Positions 6,174 to 29,463 of a stretch of 64,000 nt of DNA are shown here, one piece after another. The DNA is from Albugo candida. Its lineage: Eukaryota. Location: contig JBDOQK010000059.1 in assembly GCA_040437565.1 (NCBI GenBank), positions 124,001-188,000 on the forward strand. The letters are read 5' to 3'. The notes below the pieces were generated by a model. That model ran no database searches. It had not been told where the DNA came from and worked only from the letters and a program-made list of their open reading frames with translations. Position 1 is the stretch's first letter; every line of letters begins with the position of its first letter. Position numbers and translations under genes: made by a program.

Positions 6174-6742
6174 TGTGGAGATTGAATCAAATTGTAGAAT
6201 GTGTTCATCGTACTCGTTGAGATTGCATAGAGCGCTTTCGACTCTTTATCTATGCGAGAAATTGTCAGCGTGAGTCGAAGAAAGTTCAAGAGCATTCTAG
6301 TTGTATTCCTGTGTGGATATTATCGTCAGAAAAGCTGCAGGTTATTTTAATTTGATTCACGACAACACATAGATCAAAAGCTACTGTAGTTTGTGCGTTT
6401 ACATTAGCAATTTGTGGCTAATGGATGTTAGGTCGCAGCTAACTATAAACTTTGATAGTATTCACTAGTGCCTGCGTTCTGGTCGCTACAAATGATCATC
6501 TGGCGGAGTTAAGCAATAACTCCAGTACTCGTGCAACGTTAGCGTCAACTGGTATGCTTGACACATGCAGGTTGAATGTCTGAAACAAAGCGAACGGGTG
6601 TGAAGAAGAACTAAATACAAACCATGAAGACTTGCTACTCAACTCGAGATAGCTGAACAGGAATTTTACCCAGTCTACGTCGTACAACAATCTCTTTATT
6701 TGGAATATAGAAAACAAGCAAACACAAAAGTACTACACGTAT

Positions 6743-7870
6743 TCATTGACACTTCACCCCGTTCTTCGGATCTTTTGGTATATTCTGGCATTTGGCAAGT
6801 CCTTCCGCCGTACCACCCGTAATTTGTATATTGCTCCATTGCCAATCAGAACACGAGCCATCTCCGCAGTAAACAAGGACCCGCTGTGCCTTTTCTCTAA
6901 CGGTACCTTTGAAATTGCTGATTTTCAGTCCTCTGATTTCAACTCCATTGGTCGCAGCCCTTTGTGGCACATTGCCTTTTGCGTCCAAGTAATCTTGACG
7001 AATGAGAATGCCAAAATCCTTGATGTTATTTATTACGATGTCGGTTACTTTGATGTTAATCACACTTCCCGACGCGCCTTGTATAGTCTTGATGCGAAAA
7101 CCGTTGAGGCTATCTGTGATATTAATGTAGGATATAGTTACGTCGCTAACGTCATTAACCCGCTTTTGACCGATCGACCCGATAGATGCGCCATTGCCTC
7201 CCAGACATTGTGATTTTGTAAACGTAATATTGCTTCCAGAGGTAGCCGTGAAGCAATCGTCTTGATTATGTACGTAGCAGTCTCTGATTATGATACCCGT
7301 CGATTGCGTCACGTGAAACCCATCCGTATTTTTGGCAAGGCCGTCGCCGGCTTGATTGTCGATATTGATATTGTTGAAGATTGTGTTTTGTGAATTGGAT
7401 ATCATAAAGACATGAGCAGGTGCATTCAAAACGGAGAGACCTTCGACGTGAGAGTCGACTAAGTGGAATAGGAAAAATTTCGGATTCAGTTTGCCATCAT
7501 TATTATTCTTATCCCAGTAGCATGCTCCGCTCCCATCAAACTTATTACCAGTCGCGCCGGTGATATGCACATTTTTTCCTTCGATATATACGAAATATTC
7601 CAAAGCGTGCCTATTTTGTGGATTGCATTTGAAAACAATCGTTCCGGTAAAAACGAGTTCTATGCCCTGTGGGAGCACGCGCAAATCAAGCTTCTTCCCA
7701 GCGGGTACCGTTAAATCTCCGAAAGTGACAATGGTGCATTTCTTTTGGACTATTACTTCCAATATTTTATCGACGTCTTGATCGACAGGAATAGTGCAGC
7801 GAACTGGAGATCGTGCAAGTGCGCACTTTAGCAGCACAAATATATAGAATGCTTGATGTTTCGACAACAT
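6743..7870 (-). CDS. Secreted GH28 polygalacturonase-like protein PG1 (intronless), first assembly copy
   Basis: Signal peptide MLSKHQAFYIFVLLKCALA; motifs NTDG, QDD, GGNGASIGS, RIKT; C-terminal CGDGSCSDWQW. Confidence 0.93.
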   Translation of the reverse strand: MLSKHQAFYIFVLLKCALARSPVRCTIPVDQDVDKILEVIVQKKCTIVTFGDLTVPAGKKLDLRVLPQGIELVFTGTIVFKCNPQNRHALEYFVYIEGKNVHITGATGNKFDGSGACYWDKNNNDGKLNPKFFLFHLVDSHVEGLSVLNAPAHVFMISNSQNTIFNNINIDNQAGDGLAKNTDGFHVTQSTGIIIRDCYVHNQDDCFTATSGSNITFTKSQCLGGNGASIGSIGQKRVNDVSDVTISYINITDSLNGFRIKTIQGASGSVINIKVTDIVINNIKDFGILIRQDYLDAKGNVPQRAATNGVEIRGLKISNFKGTVREKAQRVLVYCGDGSCSDWQWSNIQITGGTAEGLAKCQNIPKDPKNGVKCQ

Positions 7871-8565
7871 ATTTTGATGCTTTTTGATGTTCGAAAGGCC
7901 GCAAATCGTAATATGATCGATCAAGAAGGAAAGGTGCTATTTAAATATTTCTGCTATCAGTAGTGCGTCACTAATGTTGGGTCTTTACGGAAGGTAACCA
8001 GACCTGTCGCCATTTCCTCATGGCATTCGGATTTCTTGCTTAAAAGACGAGAAAGAGTGAATTCAAGCCTCCTGAGTTCTCTATTTTTGGGCGTGCGTCC
8101 CCTTTCCTGGAGAACAGACACATATAGTGGTGTGCTTCCTGATCTTTAAAACATCTGGACACTTACGCTACTACTCGCCCTGCGAGCGTTCAATGACACG
8201 GATCAGTTACGGATCAGTATCAGAGAACATATGTGGTGATGCAAGTGCACATGTAGAAATACTTAATTGGAATTGCATACGTTTACTGATAGTGTATATA
8301 GAATAATTCATTGAAGGAGCGTGCGTATACTGATGCCACNNNNNNNNNNNNNNNNNNNNNNNNNNNNNNNNNNNNNNNNNNNNNNNNNNNNNNNNNNNNN
8401 NNNNNNNNNNNNNNNNNNNNNNNNNNNNNNNNNNNNNNNACAAACCATGAAGACTTGCTACTCAACTCGAGATAGCTGAACAGGAATTTTACCCAGTCTA
8501 CGTCGTACAACAATCTCTTTATTTGGAATATAGAAAACAAGCAAACACAAAAGTACTACACGTAT

Positions 8566-9693
8566 TCATTGACACTTCACCCCGTTCTTCGGATCTTTTG
8601 GTATATTCTGGCATTTGGCAAGTCCTTCCGCCGTACCACCCGTAATTTGTATATTGCTCCATTGCCAATCAGAACACGAGCCATCTCCGCAGTAAACAAG
8701 GACCCGCTGTGCCTTTTCTCTAACGGTACCTTTGAAATTGCTGATTTTCAGTCCTCTGATTTCAACTCCATTGGTCGCAGCCCTTTGTGGCACATTGCCT
8801 TTTGCGTCCAAGTAATCTTGACGAATGAGAATGCCAAAATCCTTGATGTTATTTATTACGATGTCGGTTACTTTGATGTTAATCACACTTCCCGACGCGC
8901 CTTGTATAGTCTTGATGCGAAAACCGTTGAGGCTATCTGTGATATTAATGTAGGATATAGTTACGTCGCTAACGTCATTAACCCGCTTTTGACCGATCGA
9001 CCCGATAGATGCGCCATTGCCTCCCAGACATTGTGATTTTGTAAACGTAATATTGCTTCCAGAGGTAGCCGTGAAGCAATCGTCTTGATTATGTACGTAG
9101 CAGTCTCTGATTATGATACCCGTCGATTGCGTCACGTGAAACCCATCCGTATTTTTGGCAAGGCCGTCGCCGGCTTGATTGTCGATATTGATATTGTTGA
9201 AGATTGTGTTTTGTGAATTGGATATCATAAAGACATGAGCAGGTGCATTCAAAACGGAGAGACCTTCGACGTGAGAGTCGACTAAGTGGAATAGGAAAAA
9301 TTTCGGATTCAGTTTGCCATCATTATTATTCTTATCCCAGTAGCATGCTCCGCTCCCATCAAACTTATTACCAGTCGCGCCGGTGATATGCACATTTTTT
9401 CCTTCGATATATACGAAATATTCCAAAGCGTGCCTATTTTGTGGATTGCATTTGAAAACAATCGTTCCGGTAAAAACGAGTTCTATGCCCTGTGGGAGCA
9501 CGCGCAAATCAAGCTTCTTCCCAGCGGGTACCGTTAAATCTCCGAAAGTGACAATGGTGCATTTCTTTTGGACTATTACTTCCAATATTTTATCGACGTC
9601 TTGATCGACAGGAATAGTGCAGCGAACTGGAGATCGTGCAAGTGCGCACTTTAGCAGCACAAATATATAGAATGCTTGATGTTTCGACAACAT
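8566..9693 (-). CDS. GH28 PG1, second assembly copy (probably not a separate gene)
   Basis: Identical translation to 6743-7870 and lies inside the gap-flank duplication. Confidence 0.85.
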   Translation of the reverse strand: MLSKHQAFYIFVLLKCALARSPVRCTIPVDQDVDKILEVIVQKKCTIVTFGDLTVPAGKKLDLRVLPQGIELVFTGTIVFKCNPQNRHALEYFVYIEGKNVHITGATGNKFDGSGACYWDKNNNDGKLNPKFFLFHLVDSHVEGLSVLNAPAHVFMISNSQNTIFNNINIDNQAGDGLAKNTDGFHVTQSTGIIIRDCYVHNQDDCFTATSGSNITFTKSQCLGGNGASIGSIGQKRVNDVSDVTISYINITDSLNGFRIKTIQGASGSVINIKVTDIVINNIKDFGILIRQDYLDAKGNVPQRAATNGVEIRGLKISNFKGTVREKAQRVLVYCGDGSCSDWQWSNIQITGGTAEGLAKCQNIPKDPKNGVKCQ

Positions 9694-10070
9694 ATTTTGA
9701 TGCTTTTTGATGTTCGAAAGGCCGCAAATCGTAATATGATCGATCAAGAAGGAAAGGTGCTATTTAAATATTTCTGCTATCAGTAGTGCGTCACTAATGT
9801 TGGGTCTTTACGGAAGGTAACCAGACCTGTCGCCATTTCCTCATGGCATTCGGATTTCTTGCTTAAAAGACGAGAAAGAGTGAATTCAAGCCTCCTGAGT
9901 TCTCTATTTTTGGGCGTGCGTCCCCTTTCCTGGAGAACAGACACATATAGTGGTGTGCTTCCTGATCTTTAAAACATCTGGACACTTACGCTACTACTCG
10001 CCCTGCGAGCGTTCAATGACACGGATCAGTTACGGATCAGTATCAGAGAACATATGTGGTGATGCAAGTG

Positions 10071-10225
10071 CACATGTAGAAATACTTAATTGGAATTGCA
10101 TACGTTTACTGATAGTGTATATAGAATAATTCATTGAAGGAGCGTGCGTATACTGATGCCACTTGTTAAAGTACTTCATTGGAATGACGTGCGTTTACTG
10201 ATGCCACGTGTTAAAGTTCTTTGAA
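10071..10225. repeat. Degenerate ~45-bp tandem repeat, about 3.5 units
   Basis: Units start at 10071, 10116, 10160 and 10205. Unit 3 is CACTTGTTAAAGTACTTCATTGGAATGACGTGCGTTTACTGATGC. A partial copy also lies in the duplicated flank at 8248-8339. Confidence 0.8.
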
Positions 10226-13019
10226 AACTGACTCTATGATTATATTATACATTACATGCGGTGGGAGCCCTAACTTTGCCATGTGGCTACCCTGCTAGCA
10301 CCCAGGGGATGATGCGTTGCTGGCGACACCATTTGGATTATAAGCTTCTGGAGAAAGTCAAAATAGGGGACAGAAACGCATGATATATTTGTGTGAATTT
10401 GTGCGATCAGCTTACAGCGTCTGATTATCCTTATGTCTTGAACAAAGAATCAGTAGCACATTCAAATTCCATCGTCAAATCCACTCTCTCCAGCGTTTCG
10501 CCGATCAGAAGAACCGAGCAGCAGAGTCAGACAAGTGCCTATATAGCGTCAGACAAAGCAATCAACGATTACTTCGTGTTGAATAGTAGTATGTCGTAAC
10601 ATTGTATGGGTTTGACATGCTTTGAATTCAAACACGATGCAAAAGGAGAAGCTGCTAGCGATCACATTCATAGAATCAAGAGATTTTAAGGCGTCTTCTC
10701 GAAGACATGGAGTCAACTTTAAAATGGGGTTGTATTCTGAGAGAAGACGTCAAGATGGAGTCCTGGGAGACAATTACGACCTCGCGACGCTATGTATATG
10801 TGGATGACTGTGACGCATGGTTCATCTTATTCTAGCGACAGTGAGCGCTTCGATAGCATTCTTGCGGTAAGAATCCTAGTCTCAATAATAAAAAGAAGGG
10901 GGAAGATAACATATCGACGCGATTATTCAAGTCCCGACTCGTCTGGGCTTTCCAAGAGGGGAATTAGGCCACGCTTACAAGCCACCGATTCTGTATGAAC
11001 AAAACTGATCGACACCGTCGATTTCTTCGAGGTTCAGCTCGGACGCCAGTGTGAGCTAACGAGGTTTGTTCATCACCAATACTTTCTGACACGCACAATT
11101 CATTTACCAAAACAAGATTAGTAATGCTTGTGGACTAGATATTTTGTAACGAATTTGTAAGTAGGTTCAAAGTTGAGGCACGCAAAGACGAAAACCCAAT
11201 GAAATGTCTATGAGGATTTTGACCACACCTCAGCGAAGCCAGATTAAGTCTAAATGTTTCCTTCTCAAGATTGTGGGTTATTGCATAGGATGCATGATTA
11301 CAGCCCGAAGAACAGAATCTGTTGGCAATTTTTTACCAGTAAACAGAGAGAATCATGTATTCAATATAAAAGGACCGAAGAACACTGGCAACGAGATCTC
11401 AGTGTCTCTGACTATGATAATCAGCATTTTGATGTTCTCCCTTTATCAGCTGTATGCGTTTCTTGCTTGTGTGAGTCGGTACCTTGGTTTATCTAAGATC
11501 GACAACTTGAGCACTGAGAACGATGCATTCTTACTGAGTCTAGGAAAGTCTACATAGACGCATGCCGCATCTTTGATAGAATACAATTGTGTCAACTGAG
11601 ATCCACAAATATGCTGCATGAGAAGGGCGTGAGATACATTTCTTATTTGTCTTGCTGCCGGGCAAAGAATAAATTTGGCTTGCAATTTTGTTAGTATACA
11701 CCGCGAGCAAGCCTCACACATTATATGACGGTTTGAGATTGCGATTCCATCAAAGCGAAGCATCACCCAAAATAAATCACTACTGAGCCGTGTACAGTGC
11801 AGATATCGTGATAATACTGAAGTGGGGATTCGTATCTCATTACACTTGAGACGCGTGCATTAGTTCAGTGCAAAGCCGCACTAAGATGTACATTGTCAAA
11901 TGATCGATGTACCTTTTTATTCAGCACATGCCAGGTGGCCACTAATTGTCTAACTCGATGTTGTTTATCCAAGTGTCGACCTCTGACATCTCAGCGAGAC
12001 CAATCAGAATATCGCCATTTTCGATGATATAGTATTCGGGCCACAAAATGAGATATAGCTGCTGGGAAAATGACTGCCTCAATATATTGAGTTAGGACCT
12101 AGAAAGCCATACAACACAATACGCTTGCATAAGACATCCCGAGCAAAAGAAAATCTAGATAGGACTAAAATGAAATCATGGAATTACAATGACTCTTGCA
12201 AGATTGGATCGAGACTTCTCGTTATAAAAAATCTATATCCTGAATGTGCTGTTGCCTCCAAATTATCCCTACATACTGCTAGAAATCATTGATATAGCTC
12301 CTAGAGATAGAGTGTGACCACCATCTGCCTGTGGTAATACCCTCTCTCCTCAATTAATCTGAGTTTTTGTCTGCATATTCAGTCGTCCTTTAGTTTGATT
12401 CCATTCCAGACAAACCCTATCGTCCGAGTATTTCTCAGCTTTTTAAACGTCATAGTTTGTTTTCGATTTATCTATCAATACATTCTTGAATGTACTGTTG
12501 TGTGCATTGTTTTTTTATTTGAGAGATGTACACAGATGTCTTTTTTAAAAGATGGTACGATTATTGACTTGTATGAGGCATCTGCAGTGAATCGCAGCTG
12601 ACAAGTACGAGATCACCACATTCTAAACAACTTCAAAGGGAAGACTCCAATGACCGGCCTTGAGACGCTCCACCACAAATTGCGGAATGTGTATATGATC
12701 GGTCCTACTGGCCGAGCTGGAAAGCCTTAATAAAAAATACTACGGCGAGGTAAATCACCTTTCCTTAGCGGGTTTGTGATGCAACAATCCGTTGCACATA
12801 TATTGCACCCGCACATGGCGATGTGCTTTGGATACTCGAGTCTAACCATATACCCTCTCTAAAAAATATTATCTCGTATGCTTCGAAAACAACTGTGATG
12901 TAATCGATGTATGGTCATCACTCGACATCTGAAGAAACGTGGAGGTGCACAATACAGCGCAATGAAGTGTGTTCCTCAACAAGCTAAAATTCTAGAAAGC
13001 TCGATTTACATCGTCATAC

Positions 13020-13930
13020 CCAGCACATGCTTCAAAAACATGGAGGCGAGAGGATTTGTGCCGCTATATATTGCACTAGGAGCTTACTAAGGCTACAACG
13101 TTGGCTTCGTCTTTTTTTGGTATCATCATGTGCTGAATGCAAGCGCACCTTGTCACTTGATATTAAAGTACGACAAGATGCACCACGACGTGCATATACT
13201 CGCAAGTTTGCGCCCTATTCTTCCATGAAACATGTTCTCTGGACATGTTCTATGATGCATGCTCTTTTTAGGAAGTACTGGTCAGTACAATTTTCTTCAA
13301 TTGCGTGAATGATGCTAAAGCCGTGCGGAAATGCAGCTACGAGGTCCGGCATCTATATCTATACATGTGGATCCATGCATAGGATTTTTGCTACTATGAA
13401 AAGAATCACTTCTCTGAAGCTGCCCAGACTACAGAAACCAGGTGATAGTGTTCAAAGCACGATAATGCGGCTACGCATATACTCGAAAATTTTGATTGTT
13501 CATGTTGCGGCTGAACTTTTTTTCTGACATGAGAAGAAATCTTGAATCTGCATATATCTGGCGAGTTACAATGGACACGCCGTGTTGGCTTCGACTGGTG
13601 TATCTAGGGTCAGCTGGAGTTCATCGCGATCCAAGAAAACCTGATTGCAGAGAAGTTTTAGCTTAATTGATCAAAAATTGCAGGAATCAACGAATAATAA
13701 TTCTGTTTAAAAAGTAGAGTCCTGCACAATGGTGCGAATACTGATCGAGAAATGGGACAATACAAATGCAACGATCCTTTAAAGTCTTCCAGCCATACCA
13801 TAATCATATTCGCCATGACTTCGCAGCAGGACTGGTATGAAAGATCAAAATAGGTGATGCTATTTGGACTTCAACACCGTCTTTTCATTATTTGGAATTT
13901 TTGAATCATCACTTCGTACGAGTTCTTTCA
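13020..13930 (+). mobile_element. Possible highly degraded Tc1/mariner transposase relic
   Basis: Frameshifted remnants in the expected order: KLPRL, TTTTCTGAC..GAGAAGAAA..AATCTG (resembles FSDEKKFNL), and GTCTTCCAG (VFQ, as in FQQDN). Many stops; no TIRs seen. Confidence 0.35.
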
Positions 13931-14676
13931 GCGCGGTATTGATTGAAAAGCGACAGATTGGCTTGAGTCGAGCGTACAGTCAGCCTGAATGGTCTAATAC
14001 AAAGACGTATCTTCACATAGTATAGACAACTTCATTGTGTTCCCGACATTATCAATATATATACGAGAAAACTCTCCATGAGAGAGTACGGCTATGGAGA
14101 AAGGCTGTCTGAATCGTGATTACCGCAAAAAGTGGTCGGCGAAGTGAGCCTTGATAAGGCTTTTTACTCCATGGCAAAACCATTTTCGTTAACAAATTGA
14201 TCTGAGATAGAACATATCAGAATTAGAATGAATAAAAGTCGAGAATACCTTATCGTATAGTGATTCGCGGGAAGATAAATGAAGCCACCTGATGAGTCAT
14301 GTATTGAAATCTAAAAAAGTATGAGTTTTGTTGTAGCTGTCATCTGATCAGGGTCATGGACCAGGTGCTAAAGTTTTAATCAAATTCGTGACTAATGCAT
14401 GACAAGAAGTATGTGAGTAATTGAAGCGGCAACCCTCTAAGAATGTGAGCTGTCACTTCTTTGGATAGATGACAAAAACGTGCGAGTATATACAAAATGT
14501 TTAATCATTGCATAAGTTGTGCCATTAACTATCTTCACATAAGTCAATTCTACCGTGGTTTTATCCGTTTTTCTCAATGATTGTAGAAATCAGCACAAAG
14601 AAAGATATGTGGTCGTTCTCATCACTTGATGGGGAACAATAAACCAACACCGATAAAAATGAATTGGTGATTACTT

Positions 14677-14693
14677 CTCACTTAAAATTTTGC
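14677..14693 (+). promoter_or_regulatory. Oomycete Inr + FPR core promoter-like motif for PG2
   Basis: CTCACTTAAAATTTTGC about 30-45 nt upstream of ATG 14723. Confidence 0.55.
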
Positions 14694-14722
14694 ACACGCT
14701 AGCACCCGGTCACTTTATAAGC

Positions 14723-15897
14723 ATGAAATTCATCCGTTTAATCCATTTCTACGCATTTGCTGCCATCATTTCCAGCATCAGGGCGGCACCGCCGTCAAGA
14801 TTGGATTGCGAGGTGAAGGGAAAGTATAACCCCAAAACAACAATCGAGAAGTTGGCTACATGCAAGACACTAGTTTTTCAGGATGTGCAGCTTTCTTCGA
14901 ATCAACAACTCAATCTCACGAATCTGAATGGGATAACGATCGAGTTTAACGGGAGTATCACTTTCGCTGTCAGGGTGAGACTACATTCCATCTGTTCAAA
15001 TCTATGATCCGCGTATCTTGCTAACATCGCCTCGTGATATTCTAGCATGATCGGATCAAATTAATGCATATAAGCGGAACACAGTTAAACATCACGGCTT
15101 CACCGTCCGCATGGTTCATCGCGTTTGGTGAGAAGTACTATGATGGTGGAGGCTATTACACCGGACAAATCAAACCCATGTTTGCTATGATTGAAGTCAC
15201 AAATTCCACGCTTACAGGTTTAAAAGTACTTGGCACTCCAGCTCACGCGTTTATGCTCGCAGAATGTCATAACTCCAAGTTCATAAAGTTTGAAGTCGAC
15301 GACTCGGCTGGTGATAAGAATCATCTAGCTAAAAATACGGATGGAATTCACATTTTGCAGTCGTCAAATATCACGATTACAGGCGCCATAATCCACGTTC
15401 AAGATGACTGCGTGTGCATAACATCGGGTTACGATGTGATTATTACTAATATCACATGCACTGGAGGTGGTTTCTCGATAGGGTCAATCGGTAAAAACAG
15501 GATTAATACGGTGGAAAGAGTCACCTTCAGTGCTTCAACTATCACACGTAGTCTGTATGGCCTTCTTATCAAGATATGGCCGAACACTAAAGGCACCGTC
15601 GATCGTGTCACGTTCGAAAATATAGCTCTGAAGGACGTGAAACAGCAAGGCATTGCAATCACAAAAGGTTACACTTTTAAAGGTCTTTATTCCGAACCAA
15701 CACCAGGAGTTACTATCACCAAGTTGGTCATAAGAAATATATCTGGAAACGTCGAGGATAAGGGACAGAGTGTCATGATCAATTGTCCTCGAGGAGAATG
15801 CGGAAATTTCACGTGGAAGAACGTCAAGATCTTGGGCGGAAAAGCGACCCTGATGAAAAGCTCCCTTGCTTTAACCGAGGCCCACTACACACACTAA
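14723..15897 (+). CDS. Secreted GH28 polygalacturonase-like protein PG2 (367 aa, 2 exons)
   Basis: Exon 14723-14974, intron 14975-15045 (GTGAGA..GCTAAC..TAG), exon 15046-15897. Signal peptide; motifs NTDG, QDD, GGGFSIGS, LIK. Confidence 0.9.
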
Positions 15898-18800
15898 CAT
15901 CTGCATTTCTTCATCTTCCCAAAGTTCTTTCATTTGATGGTGCATAATAAATAAAGCGTAAGGCACTGTCTTTCATCCATAAATTATTATAAGTGAGTAA
16001 ACTGAGCTTATCGAGGTAGTGCTCTAGATTGGATCTTCCGAACATGTTTTCAGTATCGGAATGTGCAGAACGTGGGTTTTCATCATGTAGCACACTCATA
16101 CACAGTACAACATCTACATCCGGAGATTCAAAGTGTATTAGTGTAGCAAGCATATGCATAGCCGTAGAACTTGAGGCATTTTCATATGCACGATGAGTCA
16201 AATGGGACGTAATATCTTACAGAAGAGCTGCCGCAACTTTGAACATTCTTGGTGTGTTTTTTATCATCCAAATTTGCGCTTTCCGAAACAATAATTTCGG
16301 ATGAGCATATCAAATTTATCGCACTTTCATCAAAAACAATAGATTTGACTGCATCAGCGCGCAATAAGGTACACCAGTTCAAGAGATACAGCTAGATTAA
16401 TGAGCTTCATATCTTCTGCCACAATTTCATCGTAACGTGGCCAGATTAATCGAATACTTTGGAGATCCGAAGCAGGTCTACACGATGGTGATTCTCTCTT
16501 TAGAATTTTGTCTAGAACCTCTAGTTACTTTTACCGGCGTGTGTGCTTGATGTTGGATGATGAGGAGGCAGACTTTATGACGAAACTTTCCGTACCTGAC
16601 TTCTTAGCTGACTTGGAACTATACGAAATATTCCAGCTGACCAAACAGTGTGTTGCAGTCCTTTACGGTAAACAAATGGGCACGATAAGTTGTACTTTAT
16701 CAACGAGCTATCTGAGATTACATGAATTAGATTACACACAATCGTTTGGTTTTATGAGGTGAGAAAAGTAAAGCCCGATGCTAGGAACGCATTCTAAACG
16801 TGAGCAGAGATCGCTACAGATACCAAGTAGTGCCCCGCTCAATAATACTAAACTATACTAGATAAGAAGTCTCGGTAAAAATTATTTTCGTGGCCTAATG
16901 GCTTTGGAATGAGAACAAAAGTCAAATGTCAGTACGATTAATCCGACTTGTTGAAGAAATGCACTGCTCGAGTAGTGGTATCTCACAGATTTGTTTAAAG
17001 CTGGTCATATTGAGCTGAGTTAAAAGTCGCTGTATTGTAGGAACAGGATACAAATCAAAATATAGATCGGAAGTCAAATCGCCAAAGGCTATCTCACTTG
17101 TCACAGTGTGGCAGATTATGCCAGGCGAAATTGACCCACTCGGCATTTTGCACATATTTCAACCCAGCCAACCTCGATATCCATATGATTGTAATTCCGA
17201 GTGTGAAACGATCGAGCACCATGGTAGTAGTGCTCCCGACGCAAGCAATAGAAATACGGAGCCAACTTAGGCGTATTTTTAAGTGAGTACTTGTAGGCTC
17301 AACGATGAAGTAGCCAATAGCCCTCGTGGTTACCATGATGCTGAGCACACTTTGTATCGCGCTATATCATGCCGATGCAAAAACCTATCATCTGTCACAA
17401 AATGATGCGAGTCAGCCGCCAGGTTGCTGTCTCATTTGTCGTCTTCGCCGATGGATACGATAGAACTTCACGATTATTGGCGACAGCACTAGAAAAAGTA
17501 TGCTGCTCCTTATGTCTCTGCAAACCATCATAGCGATTATCGTAATCGCACACGTGGCAAGACTACATCAATTCCGTCTGTGTTGGAGGCATGTTCATTC
17601 ACGTGTCATTGTTGACGTTCAACAACGTTCTTGGTGCTTCATGATCGCTTAAAACCAAAAGACATGGATATGTGCACTCGAGGCGTTGAGATTGTAGAAC
17701 TGAGAGTCGACTCGACGAAAAGAAAGATGAAAGCTACTCCACATCAGATCCTTTTTCACTAAGTTGCATTCAAATACGCATGCAAGTGAAATGATGGCCA
17801 CTGGCAACGTGTGCCAATCATGTTCCTACTTTAGCAAATAATGGATAGAATGCAACGTTCCCGCACACTTGTACCTTGCATGATCAATTTGTTACCCACC
17901 AGGTATCATCAAATCTGTAAATGTTAAGTTGAGTACGAAAAGAGTTTCGATTGTGTTTGTTTCAGCACCCAAGATTCCAGAATGAGACATTCGTCTTAAG
18001 CTTGTGCTTGTGTGTAATTTATCAGCAAAACCAAATACTGCTCTGAGACGCAAATCATGGTATGTAATTGACTCCAAACAACTGTCTCTGCTTCCTTATC
18101 CTTCGGTACTTTCAGTTTTAATGTAGCAGGATGAATCCAGCACGGTCGATGTTTTGCAGCGTTTAACTTTATGATTGTAGCCTCGTTGTTTTGACCGAAA
18201 AGGTATGCAGGGTTATGCTAATTTCTTCATTCTTGGGTGAGTCAGCAGGAAAAAAAACTTTGGCTTATGCGGAAGAGATCTTAGCTCACCTCAATTCTAG
18301 CTAAAGACATCACCCGTGGTTAACAAATCATATCCTCTAGGGTATGAATCACAAAAGTGCAAATTGGTAAGTTAGTCAGCCCCTCGTGTGCTTTTTACTT
18401 TGACCTTAATCATTAAGAGAAGACTCTGTCTGTGCTGTAATTTATAGTCTCGAAGATGCCATCGAATGAGTGATAGGCGCTTACCACATCTTATGGACTA
18501 ACGAATCTCATGATTTTCACCCATGCGACCATGTGCGTGCATCAAACGTAAGCGAGTATAAAGCCATTCGCGAGAAAAACTAATGGTAAGGGAAGAAGAT
18601 GTACACAAGAAATATTAAAAGCGGAAGATATCGATGTATGTGATGAAAATTACAACAGGATTCGTCATAGGTTGGCAGTGGTAATGGTGTAGACGAAAAT
18701 GGTGATGTCATGGCTCCTGGTTTTGCGGAAACTATCATAAACGCTTGTAAGGCTGTCTTATGTGCCCGCACCACGTACGGAGAATCCAAAAACATGCATT

Positions 18801-20121
18801 CCAATGATGCATATAATCAATATGTTCTTTGGAAGGCATGTCAAAATGTCGTATCTCACTTGTTGGCGAGACTTTTGCACCCCGTCCAACAACTCGCAGT
18901 AATGCGAGCATTATCCCTCGGCTTTCATATGCTTCAATTTCAATAAATATTAGAACCACTTGGGAAACGAGCACATCCCTTGATAGAGAAGCTACCAGCA
19001 CACACAAACGGGTGGGAAAGCGAAAATATAAAGCAGTTTATAAAGTGACATTGTAGAAAAATTAGCAACAGTTGATATTGGACGAGAGTATCATCACTGC
19101 CCCGACGGAGTCGTAGAGTGCATCTCAACATCAGAAACAAGAGAGAGCTATATCTAATTCTCGGATCCATGACACAATGCATATAGTACACTTCAGACTT
19201 TTGTTACTTATTCATACAACGTGACTGGAGGGATAACGTTTCCCAAGATGAAGTGATAGGAGACAATCGTATATCACTGAGTCAATCTCGTTCAAGACAT
19301 GCGGAAGCATCCAGCCCGTTTCAGAATATACGTGATTGCTCGAGTATTGCTGTCTTCTATTATCTCCTACAGGATACGATTGTTCCAGTACCAGTTGAAC
19401 GTGATGGACGGCCTGTCTACATCCTTCATCTCAGTTTTGGCGATTGATGCTAAGCAAAGTCAATCACGCAGTATGTCGCAATGGCAGAAGCTCAGTCAAT
19501 TTATCAAATCATTCAGGGACGCCTCGCACACTCAATGAATTAGGTTAAAACCGCTACATTATCAGTTACCCTGGTCAATGCGACCATATCTAAGACGTCA
19601 ATCGAGCCACATTATCAGTTGATTAAACGGAGTGACTATAGAATTCACTCTGCGCAAGAAACACGAGGAGCAGAAAACATTACCGGTCTAATTAGAAGAT
19701 AAGTATGCCAATGCTGTGCGTCGAAGGAGACTGAATGATATGGTAGATAATGATGCAAGGTGCGATAACATGGACTGCAATGTCTGCAAAATGTGATGCA
19801 CCTATTTGAAAGTTGTATATTTCCTCGGCTTCTTTGTCTTGTACGCTAAATTTTCATGCGACATCAGTAATATCATAAAAGGTTTTTATTGTGTCCAATT
19901 CTAAATCCCGAAATGAAGCAATCTGGCAAACTCTTTGAATAGTAGAATGTTCTACCGATAAACAGTGCGTGTTAAAACCACCCTACTAGTCGCGCTTGCA
20001 TTCAAACACTGGCAGCTTACATCACTACTGCTACACCGCACTTGCTAGTCTAAATTCACACAGAAAAGGTCGATTATGATACTTACCAGCTGAGTAGGTA
20101 TTCGCTAATGCGCATTTTATC

Positions 20122-21637
20122 ATGCAAACCGTCAGATGATTGTATATCTTCGTGTCAATAAGTTCAGCCTCAGCGGGGATCAGTCCGAATGCGTATGGAG
20201 GGAATGCGGCATAGATATAGTATCGGATGAGAGTAAGAGAGGCTCTGGGTAGACGTATGTCGCCTGTAGCGAATTAAAAACATGTCACCAGTTAGCCTTG
20301 AAATAGCCAGCGTGAAGGACTCGCTCTTTTCAATAAATGAAATGATGTAAATGGTGTCTGGCATGCAGTTCTCTTCGAAAGAAGTGGCATTACAATATTA
20401 AAAAACAGTCTGCATGAACACATGAGCATCAACACATGGCGTCAAGCATCAGCATTACGATATCTCTGTAGAGGTATATATCAATAAATCGCAGAGTCTA
20501 GCAGAATGAACGATTATGCTGTATTCTTCTGACTTGAAAAAGCCTTCTCCAAGCTGTATCAGCTGTGTCGCTTGAGTTGGTCCATCATTCTGATATACTA
20601 TTTGCATAGTCAATCCATCATGTAAATAAGAAATCTTTCGTCACACAATGTTCCGAGTCAATCAGCATCTGTCCACATTGAAAGCGGCACACATCAACTC
20701 TGCTCCTGTGACTCCCTTTCTTGTATTACGTACGTCTTTCTACTTTCGATATTTGTCTTTAATAGAGTTACTGCTCATACACTCCCGCTTGTAGCTATTC
20801 TGACATCTTTTGTACTCAATCATTTCATCNNNNNNNNNNNNNNNNNNNNNNNNNNNNNNNNNNNNNNNNNNNNNNNNNNNNNNNNNNNNNNNNNNNNNNN
20901 NNNNNNNNNNNNNNNNNNNNNNNNNNNNNATGCAAACCGTCAGATGATTGTATATCTTCGTGTCAATAAGTTCAGCCTCAGCGGGGATCAGTCCGAATGC
21001 GTATGGAGGGAATGCGGCATAGATATAGTATCGGATGAGAGTAAGAGAGGCTCTGGGTAGACGTATGTCGCCTGTAGCGAATTAAAAACATGTCACCAGT
21101 TAGCCTTGAAATAGCCAGCGTGAAGGACTCGCTCTTTTCAATAAATGAAATGATGTAAATGGTGTCTGGCATGCAGTTCTCTTCGAAAGAAGTGGCATTA
21201 CAATATTAAAAAACAGTCTGCATGAACACATGAGCATCAACACATGGCGTCAAGCATCAGCATTACGATATCTCTGTAGAGGTATATATCAATAAATCGC
21301 AGAGTCTAGCAGAATGAACGATTATGCTGTATTCTTCTGACTTGAAAAAGCCTTCTCCAAGCTGTATCAGCTGTGTCGCTTGAGTTGGTCCATCATTCTG
21401 ATATACTATTTGCATAGTCAATCCATCATGTAAATAAGAAATCTTTCGTCACACAATGTTCCGAGTCAATCAGCATCTGTCCACATTGAAAGCGGCACAC
21501 ATCAACTCTGCTCCTGTGACTCCCTTTCTTGTATTACGTACGTCTTTCTACTTTCGATATTTGTCTTTAATAGAGTTACTGCTCATACACTCCCGCTTGT
21601 AGCTATTCTGACATCTTTTGTACTCAATCATTTCATC
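20122..21637. repeat. Gap-flank duplication: 20122-20829 repeated at 20930-21637
   Basis: 708-bp copies around N 20830-20929. Confidence 0.9.
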
Positions 21638-21898
21638 GTATTCGGTACTTACATTTCTATATCGGTAAAGCGAGAAGGATACCCAAAGCGATTCCTTATG
21701 CGAAAAGGAATCAATAATGCTGCGGCACACGAACGGCCATGCATCTCAAACCCAAAGTCATCGTTTAACAAGAACATTATGACATCAAGACGTGTATTAG
21801 CTCATTAGAGGTATTTCAAAACATAAAAAGATACCCTGTAGCTTGTAATGAACAGCATTCTGGAATCATGACATGTAAACCAGGCTGAAACAATACAC

Positions 21899-23081
21899 TC
21901 ACTTACGAGGGAGTCCGAGCCCGGGTGGAGCATTTTTGTTTGGAATCTTGTTTACACCACCTGTAACTGTGACACCCGACCACTGAAAGTGCGTACAAGA
22001 TGTTGGTGACCCACAAGAGATCAGTACATTCTGTGCTTTCGGAACCACATTTCCAGTTACTTTTGTCAAAAATATGTTCGTGATGGTGACTCCATCGGTA
22101 GGGGTTCCAGTGATGTCAGCACCCGTGAAGCCTTGCGTAACAGCAATGCCGAACATTTTGATATCCTTCAATGTGATATCTTCGAATGTAATGCCGTCGA
22201 CATTTCCCTTCCCTCCAATAGACGTCTTGATAAGAACACCATACAAGCTATCTGTGATAGTCGACTGACTAAACCTGATATTGCGAACTTCATTTGCGTT
22301 CTTATTTTTTCCTATTGAACCGACCGAGAGTCCACCACCAATAGAAGTGATATCGGTTATGTTCACGTCGTATCCCGATGCTATGACCACGGCGTCATCT
22401 TGATTATTGATTACGGCCCCTTGGATGTTAATATGATTCGATTGCAAAATGTGGATCCCATCCGTGTTTGCAGCTTTTTTATTAGGGTTGAGATTACCTT
22501 CTGAATCGTCAACCTTGAAGTTTTTGAAGGTGGAATGGTTCGAGCATGCGATCAAATACGCGTGAATTGGAGTATTACGTACTTTCAGACCATCCAGTAT
22601 GGAATCTTGGACTTCAATCATAGCAAACATAGGTTTTATAATCTTGCTCTCACACCCTTCGCCATCCCAGTATTGAGGGCCATTTGCGTCAAACCATGCA
22701 TTCCCAGAAGCCGAGATGGTCACTTTGCTTCCCTTAATATGCAACAATTTTTCTTGATTATGCTACAGAAACAAAAGTCAATAAGAGGGACGTGTAATGG
22801 CCAATGTAATAAGGAAGAAGTCTCACCCTGACATCGAAAGTTATGTTGCCATTGAATTGGATATCTTGCCCGGGTCGTAGAGTCGTAAGATTGAGTTGAT
22901 GCTTCGCTAAAACTCGCAAATAATTGAATTTCACTGTCATGCAATCTTGCAGTGCTTTGTTTGTCTTTGTGGGGTTGTAAATTCCCTCAATGACACAAGT
23001 TCCGGTCGATTTCGCATTGTTGGCGTTGTTCGATGTGATTGCCATTGAGGCGAAAACATGTAAAACTCGGATCAAATTCAT
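21899..23081 (-). CDS. Secreted GH28 polygalacturonase-like protein PG3 (372 aa, 2 exons)
   Basis: Exon 23081-22827, intron 22826-22763 (GTGAGA..TAG, same position as in PG2), exon 22762-21899. Motifs NTDG, QDD, GGGLSVGS, LIK. Confidence 0.9.
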
Positions 23082-23112
23082 CTCTCTTAAGCGGTCGGAT
23101 GCCTAGTGTCCA

Positions 23113-23129
23113 GTAAATTGTAAAATGAG
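23113..23129 (-). promoter_or_regulatory. Oomycete Inr + FPR core promoter-like motif for PG3
   Basis: CTCATTTTACAATTTAC on the minus strand about 30-50 nt upstream of ATG 23081. Confidence 0.6.
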
Positions 23130-23747
23130 GAGTAAAAAGTGAAAAGCAGAAAGTAAAGTGCAGGATACATTAGTTCCAAAAACAGCTGAAAGTAAGCTAC
23201 TCCCAGCAAGTTGGTACGTGTGTCTACTTTTGCGCGTTTTCTATGAAAATCTGAGGAAGATCATGCACGTCAGCATAGTGTGTAGAAAGCTGTTCTAAGC
23301 TGTAAATAGAGTACAGTGTGGTCGGGATACGACATGCATCAGATGCTCGTGCTTTTTTTTAACGCACGTAAGACTACGCCACGGCTGACAACCTTACAGA
23401 ATGGTCAGTTATCGAAACAGATGGCAGTAGTTTCCCGCCTTGTGCTACTGACGCATGTCTAATAACGATGTAAAGTGCACCGCAAACGCCATTTTAGATC
23501 AGTAAATATTTTCATAATTTATCATATGCTCGGGGGGTACCTGATACCAAACTGTATCAATCAATAAAGGAGTATGCATATCAGAGTTTTTGTGCGAGGA
23601 CTTTGCGATCATCATTAAGTCAGTCATAATTCAAATAGTTATTAAAAAAGCTTTATTGTGGCGTCACGATGGAAAGTGCTGTACAGTGAGAGAAAATAAT
23701 GTTATGTATGGTCGATGCCACAGTCAAAGTACGTTCTTTACTTGATG

Positions 23748-27108: not shown

Positions 27109-29463
27109 TCAATGTCGAGTTGGATTCTGATATGATGGAACAGTCGATCGTTGATAAACAGAATGAGCATTTGATTCTTTTCGAGAGTCTTGACGATCGT
27201 ATTGAGACCGATTCAACGAGCACGGGCCATCTCGATTGTAATGTGTGCCTTTTTGATGAAAAAAATTATTTCGATGGTTGTGATGTGTCGACGGACGCGG
27301 ATATCTTCCAGGCATCTCTCCTCGGCGATCGTATCGTTCTTGAGATCGAGAGCGCGATTTGGACCTAGGGTGAGGTAAATTTTTACCCATTCGTCCCGCA
27401 TGACGGCCACCAATGTCTCGACCATTTCTCCACCCTAAAGTGCTTCGAGTTCCTCGCCCGTGGGCATTCCAAACGCGACCATTGTTTTGAGCCGCTGGAT
27501 CGATACTTCGATCCGTGTTACGTACTAATGGCGGTATGCATCCATCTTCAGATGCTCTTTCATGGTCGTGTTTCAGCGGAGTTACTGTGGGGCTTGCATC
27601 CCTACCATTTACTCGACCAAATCGATGCTGAATGTCTTGTTTGTCACGAGATCGAGAGCGATATCGCGAAGCAGAAGCTCTAGAAGACGAGCGGGATCGC
27701 GACCGTCGAATCGGATTCGAAACACCAAAATTTGGATGTGCATCGCTTCTTTTCATATGCATCTGAATATCTGACATTTTTGTTCGAGAGTCCTGTTGAA
27801 AGACGTTTGCATTCTTGAGCAGCAAGAGCTGCCCTGTATCGTCATAGAGAGTCTGGGAAGCAATAAGCGCATCTTCACGATTTCGATACTGCAAGTACAC
27901 GGTTGAAGGTTGTGACTTCATCATAAGCTGCCAGTTTCGTGGCGGTATGTCAACGCGTGGAATGCTTCCATTCACTTGATATCGTTTCTGGATTATCTGA
28001 ATTAATTCCTCTTTATCGCGCTTTGTATTGAACCGAAATCCTGTCGATTTTCGGACAAACAACATTTTGCGAGCCAAAAGTGTCGAAGGTTGCCGCAAAA
28101 AAAGCGGAGTGAAACAGGTTCCATACATATTCTTTTGATACCATTCCCGATCTTCTCGACTTGGGAATTCGAGCTTTTGATAGGCAGCAATCACTTCAAT
28201 AGATTCTGATCCTGAGTCCACCTTTGCATGTTCTTCTACGTTCAATAGAGTCGAAGCTTTTTCGCTGGCTGATTGACTACTTGCAGTCGTTATATCCGTA
28301 TGTGTGTCAACAATACCAAAGAAAGATGAAGGAAATTTATCTTTCGACGCTTTCATAGTGAGAAGGGAAGTGCAGTGCATTTGCCGTTTGCTTGGTTCTG
28401 GCGACAATTTACCGGCTTCGTCAATAACCGCATACTTGAATGAAGCAAAAGTTCGTTCTTTTTCATGACAAGCGCTCCAAAAAGAATTGTACCTTTTCGC
28501 AAGAGTCAAGAACTGCCTATCCTCTTCCTCGAGACAAGACTTGCCTAGAAATGAAGTCGTATCGTTTTGATCAAGACAGTCAGATGAAAGAGCATCGTGT
28601 TCTCCTTGTTCTGTTGGATCGGATTGGCTTTCATTGTGATGATTCTGCGTCAGCTGAGACTCCATACCATTCACCGGGCGAACATTTTTCTTCGGAATCA
28701 TAAACGAAGCCTTAGCGTCTTTTTCTTGAGGTTTGAAACTCTCAGTCTTTTTTTCAGTCACATTCTGACTTGTGAATGGTTTCATCTGCGTCGGCTTGTT
28801 TTTGACTACCATCCTACTCTTTTCATTATTTGGAGCAGCGTACTGTGTAGATTTCTTGTGTTCCACTTTAGGCGCTGCAACAACTTCAACTGGTACTGGG
28901 TCTTTTGCATCTAAAGTCATAGTGGAGGATGCACAAGCGGACTTTTCATTGCTTTCTATGTGCAGCCTTTCTGATACATGCACGAGACTTTTCTCATCTC
29001 CCGTTACTATTTTGACCGTCTTTCGCTCTTTGCTTATTTTCGCATTTGCGTCCGATTGCAACTTTCTTTTCCTCTTTTTGTGTATCACACTATCTGATTG
29101 CTCACCGGTGAGAGAACCTTGCTGTGTGCTATGCTTCTTTTCTTTCTCCTTTACACTTTTGGTGCGAGAAGTTAAAGATTTTTTCTTTATCATTTTTATC
29201 GTTTTAGAAGTGGCAGTAGCATTCCCCGTTATTTGGGGAACATTCCTCATTTCCAGTGATTTCGGCTCCCCAATAATCGTTTTTTCTGGCCCTATGAAGG
29301 TTTCAAAAACCTTCTTTTTACATTTTAATGCACGAAACTCATCTCCACTGCTGTCGTCGTCTCCTTCCTCACATGCTTCCTCCTTCTTTAGCATTCCTTG
29401 TAACCGATTGAGCCACGCCAATTGCTGCTTCTTTTTGAGTGCTTTTTCCATGCTTATCGACAT
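27109..29463 (-). CDS. Hypothetical nuclear protein: Lys-rich N-terminus, possible RRM-like segment, RS-rich C-terminus
   Basis: 784-aa uninterrupted ORF with KKRKRK, VYLQYRNREDALIA and RSRSRS tracts. Confidence 0.75.
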   Translation of the reverse strand: MSISMEKALKKKQQLAWLNRLQGMLKKEEACEEGDDDSSGDEFRALKCKKKVFETFIGPEKTIIGEPKSLEMRNVPQITGNATATSKTIKMIKKKSLTSRTKSVKEKEKKHSTQQGSLTGEQSDSVIHKKRKRKLQSDANAKISKERKTVKIVTGDEKSLVHVSERLHIESNEKSACASSTMTLDAKDPVPVEVVAAPKVEHKKSTQYAAPNNEKSRMVVKNKPTQMKPFTSQNVTEKKTESFKPQEKDAKASFMIPKKNVRPVNGMESQLTQNHHNESQSDPTEQGEHDALSSDCLDQNDTTSFLGKSCLEEEDRQFLTLAKRYNSFWSACHEKERTFASFKYAVIDEAGKLSPEPSKRQMHCTSLLTMKASKDKFPSSFFGIVDTHTDITTASSQSASEKASTLLNVEEHAKVDSGSESIEVIAAYQKLEFPSREDREWYQKNMYGTCFTPLFLRQPSTLLARKMLFVRKSTGFRFNTKRDKEELIQIIQKRYQVNGSIPRVDIPPRNWQLMMKSQPSTVYLQYRNREDALIASQTLYDDTGQLLLLKNANVFQQDSRTKMSDIQMHMKRSDAHPNFGVSNPIRRSRSRSSSRASASRYRSRSRDKQDIQHRFGRVNGRDASPTVTPLKHDHERASEDGCIPPLVRNTDRSIDPAAQNNGRVWNAHGRGTRSTLGWRNGRDIGGRHAGRMGKNLPHPRSKSRSRSQERYDRRGEMPGRYPRPSTHHNHRNNFFHQKGTHYNRDGPCSLNRSQYDRQDSRKESNAHSVYQRSTVPSYQNPTRH

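What the first reader, a model, noticed from the sequence alone, without database searches (positions are those of the whole stretch)
6743..23081. GH28 cluster in which all members lack the conserved His and two lack the Arg of RIK
Seen: all three keep NTD and DD. The GHG motif is GNG in PG1 and a shortened GG in PG2 and PG3, and RIK is LIK in PG2 and PG3. Known: this His and Arg (H223 and R256 in Aspergillus niger PGII) are important for endo-PG activity, and GH28 rhamnogalacturonases have a similar GG and hydrophobic-IK pattern. Inference: these may be attenuated enzymes that release fewer oligogalacturonide danger signals, enzymes with shifted substrate, or decoys for plant PG-inhibiting proteins (PGIP) that protect PG1.
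Basis: partly seen in the sequence, partly recalled or inferred. Interest (0 to 1): 0.7.

Follow-up and report, generated by a model that had tools for sequence, protein, structure and literature searches.

The report
White rust pectinases with rebuilt sites
All the pectin-cutting enzymes of this white rust plant parasite have lost an amino acid that nearly every such enzyme keeps, while holding on to the catalytic core, which suggests they were retuned (weaker, or aimed at less charged pectin) for life inside living leaves.

Summary
Observation confirmed and wider than reported. The window is from an Albugo candida-like white rust (PG1 99% identical to an A. candida protein). It holds three GH28 genes; the second PG1 copy is most likely a gap-flank assembly duplicate. 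All 7 Albugo GH28 genes in the genome lack His223 (A. niger PGII numbering): 3 by His→Asn (clade A, RIK kept), 4 by a one-codon deletion plus Arg256→Leu (clade B, shared with A. laibachii). The tree implies two separate losses. This is not routine: His is kept in 117 of 120 other oomycete PGs and 241 of 254 other GH28 domains, and none has the deletion or Leu. Asp180/201/202 and Lys258 are invariant and pairwise dN/dS is below 1. Sequence and fold are endo-PG, not rhamnogalacturonase. His and Arg both lie at subsite +1, and no pectin methylesterase was found in the genome. Best reading: live but retuned hydrolases, with clade B possibly tolerating an uncharged (methyl-esterified) +1 residue. 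The PGIP-decoy idea is the weakest. No activity or expression is shown.

The parts
6743..7870 (-). PG1: intronless secreted-type GH28, 375 aa, clade A (NTD, DD, GGNG, RIK, Y)
   Evidence: hydrophobic N-terminus
7193..7195 (-). PG1 Asn codon (AAT) at the His223 position
6617..8339 (.). Left copy of an exact 1,723-bp duplication flanking the N gap 8340-8439
8440..10162 (.). Right copy, with an identical PG1 ORF at 8566-9693; probable assembly artefact
   Evidence: 7 of 9 gaps show the same pattern
14723..14974 (+). PG2 exon 1 (hydrophobic N-terminus, first coils)
   Evidence: donor AG|GTGAGA preferred over an in-frame donor at 14969; splicing inferred, not shown by RNA
14975..15045 (+). PG2 intron, 71 nt, GT..AG, phase 0
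15046..15897 (+). PG2 exon 2 with all active-site motifs, clade B
15463..15471 (+). PG2 Gly-Gly-Gly; the His codon is deleted
15565..15573 (+). PG2 Leu-Ile-Lys in place of RIK
22827..23081 (-). PG3 exon 1
   Evidence: alternative in-frame donor at 22832
22763..22826 (-). PG3 intron, 64 nt, GT..AG, same position as in PG2
21899..22762 (-). PG3 exon 2, clade B; also Tyr291→Phe and both cysteines of the disulphide next to DD lost
22331..22339 (-). PG3 Gly-Gly-Gly; the His codon is deleted
22226..22234 (-). PG3 Leu-Ile-Lys in place of RIK

Best explanation
These are secreted endo-polygalacturonase-derived GH28 hydrolases that keep the inverting three-aspartate machinery but have rebuilt subsite +1. 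Shown: Asp180, Asp201, Asp202, Lys258, Gln200 and Ser229 are invariant; His223 is lost in two ways; clade B (PG2, PG3) also has Arg256→Leu, Lys127→Met/Ile, loss of the T3-loop Asn, and Tyr291→Phe/Trp in 3 of 8. Inferred: removing the basic residues at +1 lowers activity on de-esterified polygalacturonic acid. In clade B it gives an uncharged, hydrophobic pocket that would accept a methyl-esterified GalA at +1, letting a parasite without a pectin methylesterase loosen native wall pectin slowly and locally with little release of elicitor oligogalacturonides. Clade A (PG1) would be a milder, attenuated endo-PG.
For: Catalytic residues invariant in 8 of 8 clade B and 4 of 4 clade A sequences. Only 17 of 62 columns with a charged or amide majority are invariant in clade B, so a naive chance of keeping all four is about 0.006; rows are related. 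dN/dS 0.36-0.48 in 6 of 6 clade B pairs and 0.32-0.76 in 3 of 3 clade A pairs. Clade B is shared with A. laibachii (P0123, P0124). His and Arg are both placed at subsite +1, and H237K or R271Q abolish activity of Arabidopsis PGLR on PGA; R256A 14% and R256Q 6.5% in A. niger PGII. Xylella PG with QMK for RIK is still active, so a natural Arg loss can be a retuning. Methylation next to the scissile bond hampers normal endo-PGs. No CE8 candidate in this genome (control rang in 4 of 14), and A. laibachii is listed with 0 pectin esterases. His loss elsewhere in oomycetes is confined to downy mildews: 3 of 11 named downy-mildew PGs, 0 of 94 other named, 0 of 15 unnamed. Model of PG2 exon 2: pLDDT 94, TM 0.88-0.94 to fungal endo-PGs.
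Against: No activity, product or expression data. Pythium-type oomycetes also lack CE8 yet keep GHG and RIK (P0385, P0368, P0344), and host PMEs could de-esterify the substrate, so lacking a PME does not demand this change. The CE8 blank comes from a fragmented assembly. Peronosporalean PGs have a short T3 loop without the Asn and some are active endo-PGs, so that loss alone is not diagnostic. Double loss of His and Arg may leave almost no activity. dN/dS of 0.3-0.76 is high for an enzyme and untested statistically. That His and Arg grip the +1 carboxylate is recalled from the Stereum endo-PG I complex, not seen in a call. The three downy-mildew losses sit in one subclade and are not independent.
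Confidence: 0.38

Rival explanations
1. Plain attenuation: same substrate (de-esterified homogalacturonan), much lower rate, selected in a biotroph to limit wall damage and oligogalacturonide release.
For: His and Arg mutants lose 86-100% activity. His→Asn or Tyr recurs in Peronospora destructor and P. effusa and in no named Phytophthora, Pythium-type or Aphanomyces PG. Fits clade A best.
Against: Lower expression would reach the same end. Clade B fixes hydrophobic residues (Leu256 in 8 of 8, Met/Ile127 in 7 of 7) instead of drifting. 8 of 11 named downy-mildew PGs keep His.
Confidence: 0.2
2. Immune-epitope escape drove the changes: Brassicaceae receptors recognise PG peptides that cover the active site, and Albugo PGs differ at the residues that matter.
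For: In bioRxiv 2020.12.10.418392, pg20(Aa) needs H231 (the His223 equivalent), G232, G236 and G240, and pg9(At) needs N186, D188 and F190, with H185 and D191 contributing. All 12 His-less Albugo sequences lack the H185 and D191 equivalents; 11 of 12 lack G240, which 118 of 120 other oomycete PGs keep; 8 of 8 clade B read NTDGIH like Arabidopsis ADPG2, whose peptide was inactive. His was lost twice.
Against: Gln-Asp needed for pg36(Bra) is kept in 13 of 13. Arg256 lies outside the mapped epitopes. Hyaloperonospora brassicae keeps His in 3 of 3 shown, while His is lost in Peronospora species whose hosts (recalled: onion, spinach) are not Brassicaceae. P0005 keeps His yet already differs at the pg9 and G240 positions. 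The sensors are patchy (16 of 52 accessions). Phytophthora pg9 is already about 160-fold weaker.
Confidence: 0.15
3. Clade B proteins are inactive pectin binders or PGIP decoys that shield PG1.
For: Two key residues lost together; PG3 also lost Tyr291 and a disulphide. GH28 pseudoenzymes matter in the mustard leaf beetle. The PsXEG1 decoy precedent was seen only as a citation.
Against: Catalytic Asps are invariant, unlike beetle GH28-3. No His-bearing PG exists in the genome to be protected. The beetle pseudoenzyme was not bound by classical PGIPs. The Arg and the His177 equivalent, both absent in clade B, are residues linked to inhibitor binding in Fusarium PG (review passage; primary data recalled), which points to escape from PGIP, not baiting it.
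Confidence: 0.1
4. Clade B converged on rhamnogalacturonan-I hydrolase activity (neutral rhamnose at +1).
For: RGs lack His223 (Gly220); the hydrophobic-IK motif of RGs and the cleavage side are recalled. No GH105 candidate in the genome.
Against: RG specificity positions absent: Gln200 not Lys, DD not DE, Thr/Ala207 not Lys, His150 not Phe/Trp, Lys125 kept. phmmer with PG3 hit 13 PDB sequences at E up to 0.001, not 1RMG. Foldseek TM 0.70 to 1RMG against 0.88-0.94 to endo-PGs (the model was built on an endo-PG alignment).
Confidence: 0.08
5. Activity is near normal because other Albugo-specific residues compensate.
For: All 13 Albugo-type sequences carry His at positions 150 and 183, and clade A has a Lys-rich T3 loop. 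Xylella QMK is active in its own context.
Against: His150 and His183 are also present in P0005, which keeps His223, so they predate the loss. Residue 183 is a subsite -2 position.
Confidence: 0.09

Closest known systems
Fungal endo-polygalacturonases (A. niger PGII 1CZF, A. aculeatus 1IA5, C. lupini 2IQ7), GH28
   Same: Best sequence and fold matches (E 1.3e-70 for PG1, 8.8e-49 for PG3; TM 0.88-0.94 for PG2); NTD, DD, Lys258, Ser229, Gln200.
   Different: His223 replaced or deleted; Arg256→Leu, Phe182→Ile, loss of the C-terminal cysteine pair in clade B.
Peronosporalean, pythialean and saprolegnialean endo-PGs
   Same: Oomycete secreted GH28; one clade with Albugo is not rejected (AU p 0.74); Lys often at position 177.
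   Different: They keep His (117 of 120) and Arg (119 of 120) and form a separate, well-supported group.
Rhamnogalacturonase A (A. aculeatus, 1RMG)
   Same: No His223; a non-basic residue before IK (the latter recalled).
   Different: RG specificity positions absent; much weaker sequence and fold match.
Xylella fastidiosa PglA (QMK motif)
   Same: Natural loss of the RIK arginine in a plant-pathogen PG that stays weakly active.
   Different: Bacterial; keeps the HG motif; single gene.
GH28 pseudoenzymes of Phaedon cochleariae
   Same: Brassicaceae-associated GH28 paralogues with active-site substitutions.
   Different: The beetle keeps canonical active PGs beside them and GH28-3 lost a catalytic Asp; here every paralogue is altered and every Asp is kept.

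Membership tests
GH28 | Pfam PF00295 above cut-off; right-handed beta-helix | tested here: met
GH28 endo-polygalacturonase | NTD and DD with Asp180, Asp201, Asp202 | tested here: met
GH28 endo-polygalacturonase | G/S-H-G motif (His223) | tested here: not met
   Asn in PG1, deleted in PG2 and PG3
GH28 endo-polygalacturonase | RIK motif (Arg256, Lys258) | tested here: not met
   met in PG1; LIK in PG2 and PG3
GH28 endo-polygalacturonase | Tyr291 and Lys125 | tested here: inconclusive
   Tyr kept in PG1 and PG2, Phe in PG3; Lys125 kept in PG2 and PG3, Asn in PG1
GH28 endo-polygalacturonase | Endo-hydrolysis of homogalacturonan | not testable with these tools
   needs enzyme assay
Endo-rhamnogalacturonase | Absence of His223 | tested here: met
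Endo-rhamnogalacturonase | Asp-Glu pair, Lys at 200, Lys at 207, Phe/Trp at 150, Gly/Ala at 125 | tested here: not met
   DD, Gln, Thr/Ala, His, Lys (positions from PMC8952511; residues)
Endo-rhamnogalacturonase | Closest sequence and fold to 1RMG | tested here: not met
Endo-xylogalacturonase | His223 kept, Arg at 125, closest to 4C2L | tested here: not met
   TM 0.78, E 1.2e-13; His absent, Lys125
Pseudoenzyme decoy | A canonical active paralogue to protect | tested here: not met
   7 of 7 Albugo GH28 genes lack His; the only canonical-type fragment is 99% identical to a Hyaloperonospora PG
Pseudoenzyme decoy | No catalysis and tight inhibitor binding | not testable with these tools
   needs assay and pull-down

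The most novel reading that the evidence does not exclude
Clade B is a new GH28 specificity: an endo-acting hydrolase with a charge-free +1 subsite that cuts methyl-esterified homogalacturonan without a methylesterase, and the same changes remove the residues that Brassicaceae PG sensors and PGIPs recognise. It would be a natural test of why His223 is conserved and of how GH28 enzymes handle methylation, both named as open in PMC8952511.
Probability: 0.2. Interest if true: 0.8.

Novelty: new variant of a known kind. Interest (0 to 1): 0.58.

Why it matters
A whole pathogen pectinase repertoire without His223, lost twice and kept under constraint across two Albugo species, is a ready-made natural experiment. 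It bears on two questions that a 2022 family review calls open: why polygalacturonases keep His223 while rhamnogalacturonases do not, and how GH28 enzymes cope with methyl esters. It also makes directly testable whether an obligate biotroph trades enzyme power for stealth, because the lost His is a required residue of a Brassicaceae immune epitope. For breeding, it predicts that PG-sensing receptors and PGIPs may give little protection against white rust. An esterase-independent PG would be of industrial interest.

Tried and rejected
Four PG genes in the interval: rejected, the second PG1 is a gap-flank duplicate. A canonical PG elsewhere in the genome: the 501-bp contig C3152 is 99% identical to a Hyaloperonospora brassicae PG, taken as a co-infecting contaminant and dropped from the count of 7; it ends before the His position. 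C81 end and C266 overlap by 204 identical bases and were counted as one gene. Pseudogene at C59:73364: the TGA lies in an intron. Separate horizontal origin of Albugo GH28: suggested by the free trees, but the AU test did not reject one oomycete clade and the constrained tree scored higher, so not claimed. RG or XG membership: rejected. Expression: no RNA holder listed on record. Three runs guessed as RNA and one DNA run were laid on 8440-20800, which excludes PG3; no splice of the PG2 intron was seen, and contig depths cannot rank genes. PL4 search uninformative, controls silent; no PL1 candidate, one PL3. My first label of the KPK lysine as K125 was wrong; it is K127. Literature: three searches on Albugo with polygalacturonase terms and term searches in five Albugo papers showed only gene counts (5 polygalacturonases), no mention of these motifs; the library lacks most subscription journals, and supplements were not read. 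A search for the Stereum +1 contacts returned 0 papers. Earlier scan notes: none. No complex prediction was run.
Full report
Setting. The window is gene-dense, about 42% GC, with eukaryotic housekeeping genes. PG1 is 99% identical to a protein labelled Albugo candida, so the organism is taken to be that white rust oomycete. The own genome G000 has 36.6 Mb in 7,503 contigs.

Observation. Three GH28 genes are present: PG1 (6743-7870, minus, no intron), PG2 (14723-15897, plus, intron 14975-15045) and PG3 (23081-21899, minus, intron 22826-22763). Each intron has a second in-frame donor 6 nt upstream; I preferred AG|GTGAGA by consensus, and splicing is inferred. Alignment to A. niger PGII confirms Asn for His223 in PG1 with RIK intact. 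PG2 and PG3 have a one-codon deletion at that position and CTT (Leu) for the Arg codon. PG3 also has Phe for Tyr291 and lacks both cysteines next to the DD motif. An identical PG1 ORF at 8566-9693 lies in an exact 1,723-bp repeat across a 100-N gap; 7 of 9 gaps show this, so it is most likely an artefact. In one DNA run of another isolate the two PG1 contigs stood at depth 62-66 against 50-60 for neighbours, which fits one copy but is not a copy-number measure.

Genome census. Three searches gave 11, 10 and 10 matches. After removing the duplicate, merging two exons of one gene, merging C81 end with C266 (204-bp exact overlap) and dropping the C3152 fragment (99% Hyaloperonospora brassicae), seven genes remain. 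Three are clade A (G-N-G, RIK): PG1, C59:94749 and C59:73364. Four are clade B (GG-G, LIK): PG2, PG3, C81:72115 and C81/C266. All seven lack His223. One clade A gene has an intron at the position of the clade B intron. Two A. laibachii proteins and two unnamed proteins are clade B; one unnamed protein (P0004) is clade A. An exhaustive search with an A. laibachii clade B protein found 1,231 hits at E up to 0.001; of the best 150 only the Albugo ones carried the pattern.

How unusual. Among 254 non-Albugo GH28 domains spanning D180-K258, His is kept in 241 (Tyr 4, Asn 3, Arg 2, Ser 2, Gln 1, Thr 1; no deletion) and Arg256 in 225 (His 22, Gln 3, Ser 2, Asn 1, Tyr 1; no Leu). Among the best 120 of 156 oomycete hits, His is kept in 117 and Arg in 119 (one gap). 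The three exceptions are two Peronospora destructor proteins (Asn) and one P. effusa protein (Tyr). By my hand count labels that is 3 of 11 named downy-mildew proteins, 0 of 94 other named and 0 of 15 unnamed (Fisher p 0.0009 on named rows; the three sit in one subclade, so the p value overstates).

History. In a 58-row tree (58 picked from 388 proteins plus the three window genes; LG+G4) the 13 Albugo-type sequences are one side of a branch (100/100) with two subclades (100/99 each). P0005, an unnamed protein that keeps GHG and RIK, is sister to the four G-N-G sequences (99/94) (same in a 38-row tree). The simplest reading is two losses; a reversion in P0005 is not excluded. One clade of all oomycete GH28 was not rejected (AU p 0.74).

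Constraint. Asp180, Asp201, Asp202, Gln200, Ser229 and Lys258 are invariant in 13 of 13. In clade B 70 of 215 filled columns are invariant, and 17 of 62 columns with a charged or amide majority. Nei-Gojobori dN/dS on single exons is 0.36-0.48 for the 6 clade B pairs and 0.32, 0.36 and 0.76 for the 3 clade A pairs; between-clade dS is near or at saturation. These are maintained genes, though not tightly constrained.

Which subfamily. PG1 and PG3 match fungal endo-PG structures best, and 1RMG did not appear at E up to 0.001; a mixed profile scored endo-PGs at 1e-77 to 1e-136 and 1RMG at 2.5e-19. The AlphaFold2 model of PG2 exon 2 (pLDDT 94, 78-row alignment of mostly endo-PGs) gave TM 0.88-0.94 to eight fungal endo-PG entries, 0.80 to Stereum endo-PG, 0.78 to xylogalacturonase and 0.70 to 1RMG. 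RG specificity positions listed in PMC8952511 are not met. They are endo-PG descendants that fail two endo-PG motif tests.

Mechanism. Safran et al. (bioRxiv 2022.06.22.497136) place the His and the Arg at subsite +1 and report no activity for H237K and R271Q. PMC4646678 cites 14% and 6.5% for R256A and R256Q, and shows a Xylella QMK chimera still active. PMC8952511 reports near-complete loss for the His mutant and notes that methylation beside the scissile bond hampers endo-PGs. In clade B the T3-loop Asn, a +1 contact in PMC4556634 (I mapped it through 2IQ7), is also gone in 7 of 7 against 58 of 65 controls, but other oomycete PGs lack it too. So the changes cluster at +1 while the catalytic residues stay. 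That His and Arg bind the +1 carboxylate, and that RGases have neutral rhamnose at +1, is recalled. No CE8 candidate was found, in line with 0 pectin esterases for A. laibachii; Pythium also has none and keeps canonical PGs. I therefore give 0.38 to retuned hydrolases with ester tolerance in clade B and 0.20 to plain attenuation.

Immune epitopes. Zhang et al. (bioRxiv 2020.12.10.418392) mapped three Brassicaceae-sensed PG peptides. pg20(Aa) needs the His223 equivalent and three glycines; pg9(At) needs Asn, Asp and Phe of the NTD segment; pg36(Bra) needs the Gln-Asp pair. Albugo sequences lack the His, mostly lack the last glycine (11 of 12) and in clade B replace the Phe by Ile, reading NTDGIH like Arabidopsis ADPG2. 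Against this: Gln-Asp is kept in 13 of 13, H. brassicae keeps His, Peronospora species on other hosts lose it, and Arg256 is outside the epitopes. The peptide figures and supplements were not visible, so exact epitope ends are unknown to me. Probability as main driver 0.15; it can coexist with the best reading.

Decoy. No canonical PG exists to protect, the aspartates are kept, and a beetle pseudoenzyme was not bound by Brassica PGIPs (PMC8213348; PMC6549527). Probability 0.10.

Papers seen. bioRxiv 2020.12.10.418392: parts 1-4 of 5 of the text. PMC8952511: abstract, passages, section 5 part 1 of 2, section 18. Passages only: PMC4646678, PMC12620375, bioRxiv 2022.06.22.497136, PMC4556634, PMC6549527, PMC8213348, PMC4176579, PMC3206522, PMC3130010, bioRxiv 2022.05.16.492175, PMC13585763, PMC4913113. 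Recalled, not seen: the Stereum ligand complex, the primary Fusarium PG-PGIP mutagenesis, hosts of the Peronospora species. I found no description of these motifs in Albugo (and the five Albugo papers), within a library that lacks most subscription journals.

Verdict. Real, genome-wide and lineage-specific; a new variant of GH28 endo-PG. Function rests on inference from sequence alone. Interest 0.58.

Noticed in passing
window N gaps at 1867, 3233, 8340, 20830, 26202, 32526, 62685: Seven of nine 100-N gaps are flanked by exact duplicates of 253-1,723 bp; apparent tandem genes here, such as the two leishmanolysin-like M8 ORFs at 31500-35191, are probably artefacts.
   Followed up: partly
G000:C3152:1-501 (L010): Small contig 99% identical to a Hyaloperonospora brassicae PG: the assembly carries downy-mildew contamination.
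   Followed up: yes
P0005 (unnamed): Albugo-type GH28 that keeps GHG, RIK and the T3 Asn but reads STD for NTD; the key outgroup for dating the His loss. Its organism is unknown.
   Followed up: partly
P0287, P0307, P0296, P0329: One Peronospora subclade shows His→Asn, His→Tyr and an Asp201→Gly paralogue: parallel active-site erosion in downy mildews.
   Followed up: partly
P0044: A Hymenoscyphus fraxineus PG also reads G-N-G.
   Followed up: no
window 9757-9816, plus strand: One contig of run X18 skips 60 nt with GT..AG ends just upstream of the PG1 start, on the opposite strand: possibly a spliced divergent or antisense transcript; no ORF of 50 aa or more there.
   Followed up: partly
window 20521-23200: In run X20 (RNA by guess) a 1,858-nt contig carrying PG3 letters has depth 213 while nearby non-coding DNA is at 0-6; X18 looks alike. 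One study, contigs only, not used as evidence.
   Followed up: partly
window 9700-14700 and 15900-21900: PG2 sits in about 11 kb without ORFs over 150 aa in an otherwise dense window, and its flanks share 66-78% identical segments with flanks of paralogue loci, pointing to segmental duplication.
   Followed up: partly
window 55761-57539: GH81 endo-beta-1,3-glucanase-like ORF.
   Followed up: no
G000:C29:279978-280586 (L015): One PL3 pectate lyase, the only other pectinase family found among five searched.
   Followed up: no
window 27109-29463: 784-aa ORF with no Pfam hit, downstream of kinesin motor exons; probably the kinesin tail.
   Followed up: no
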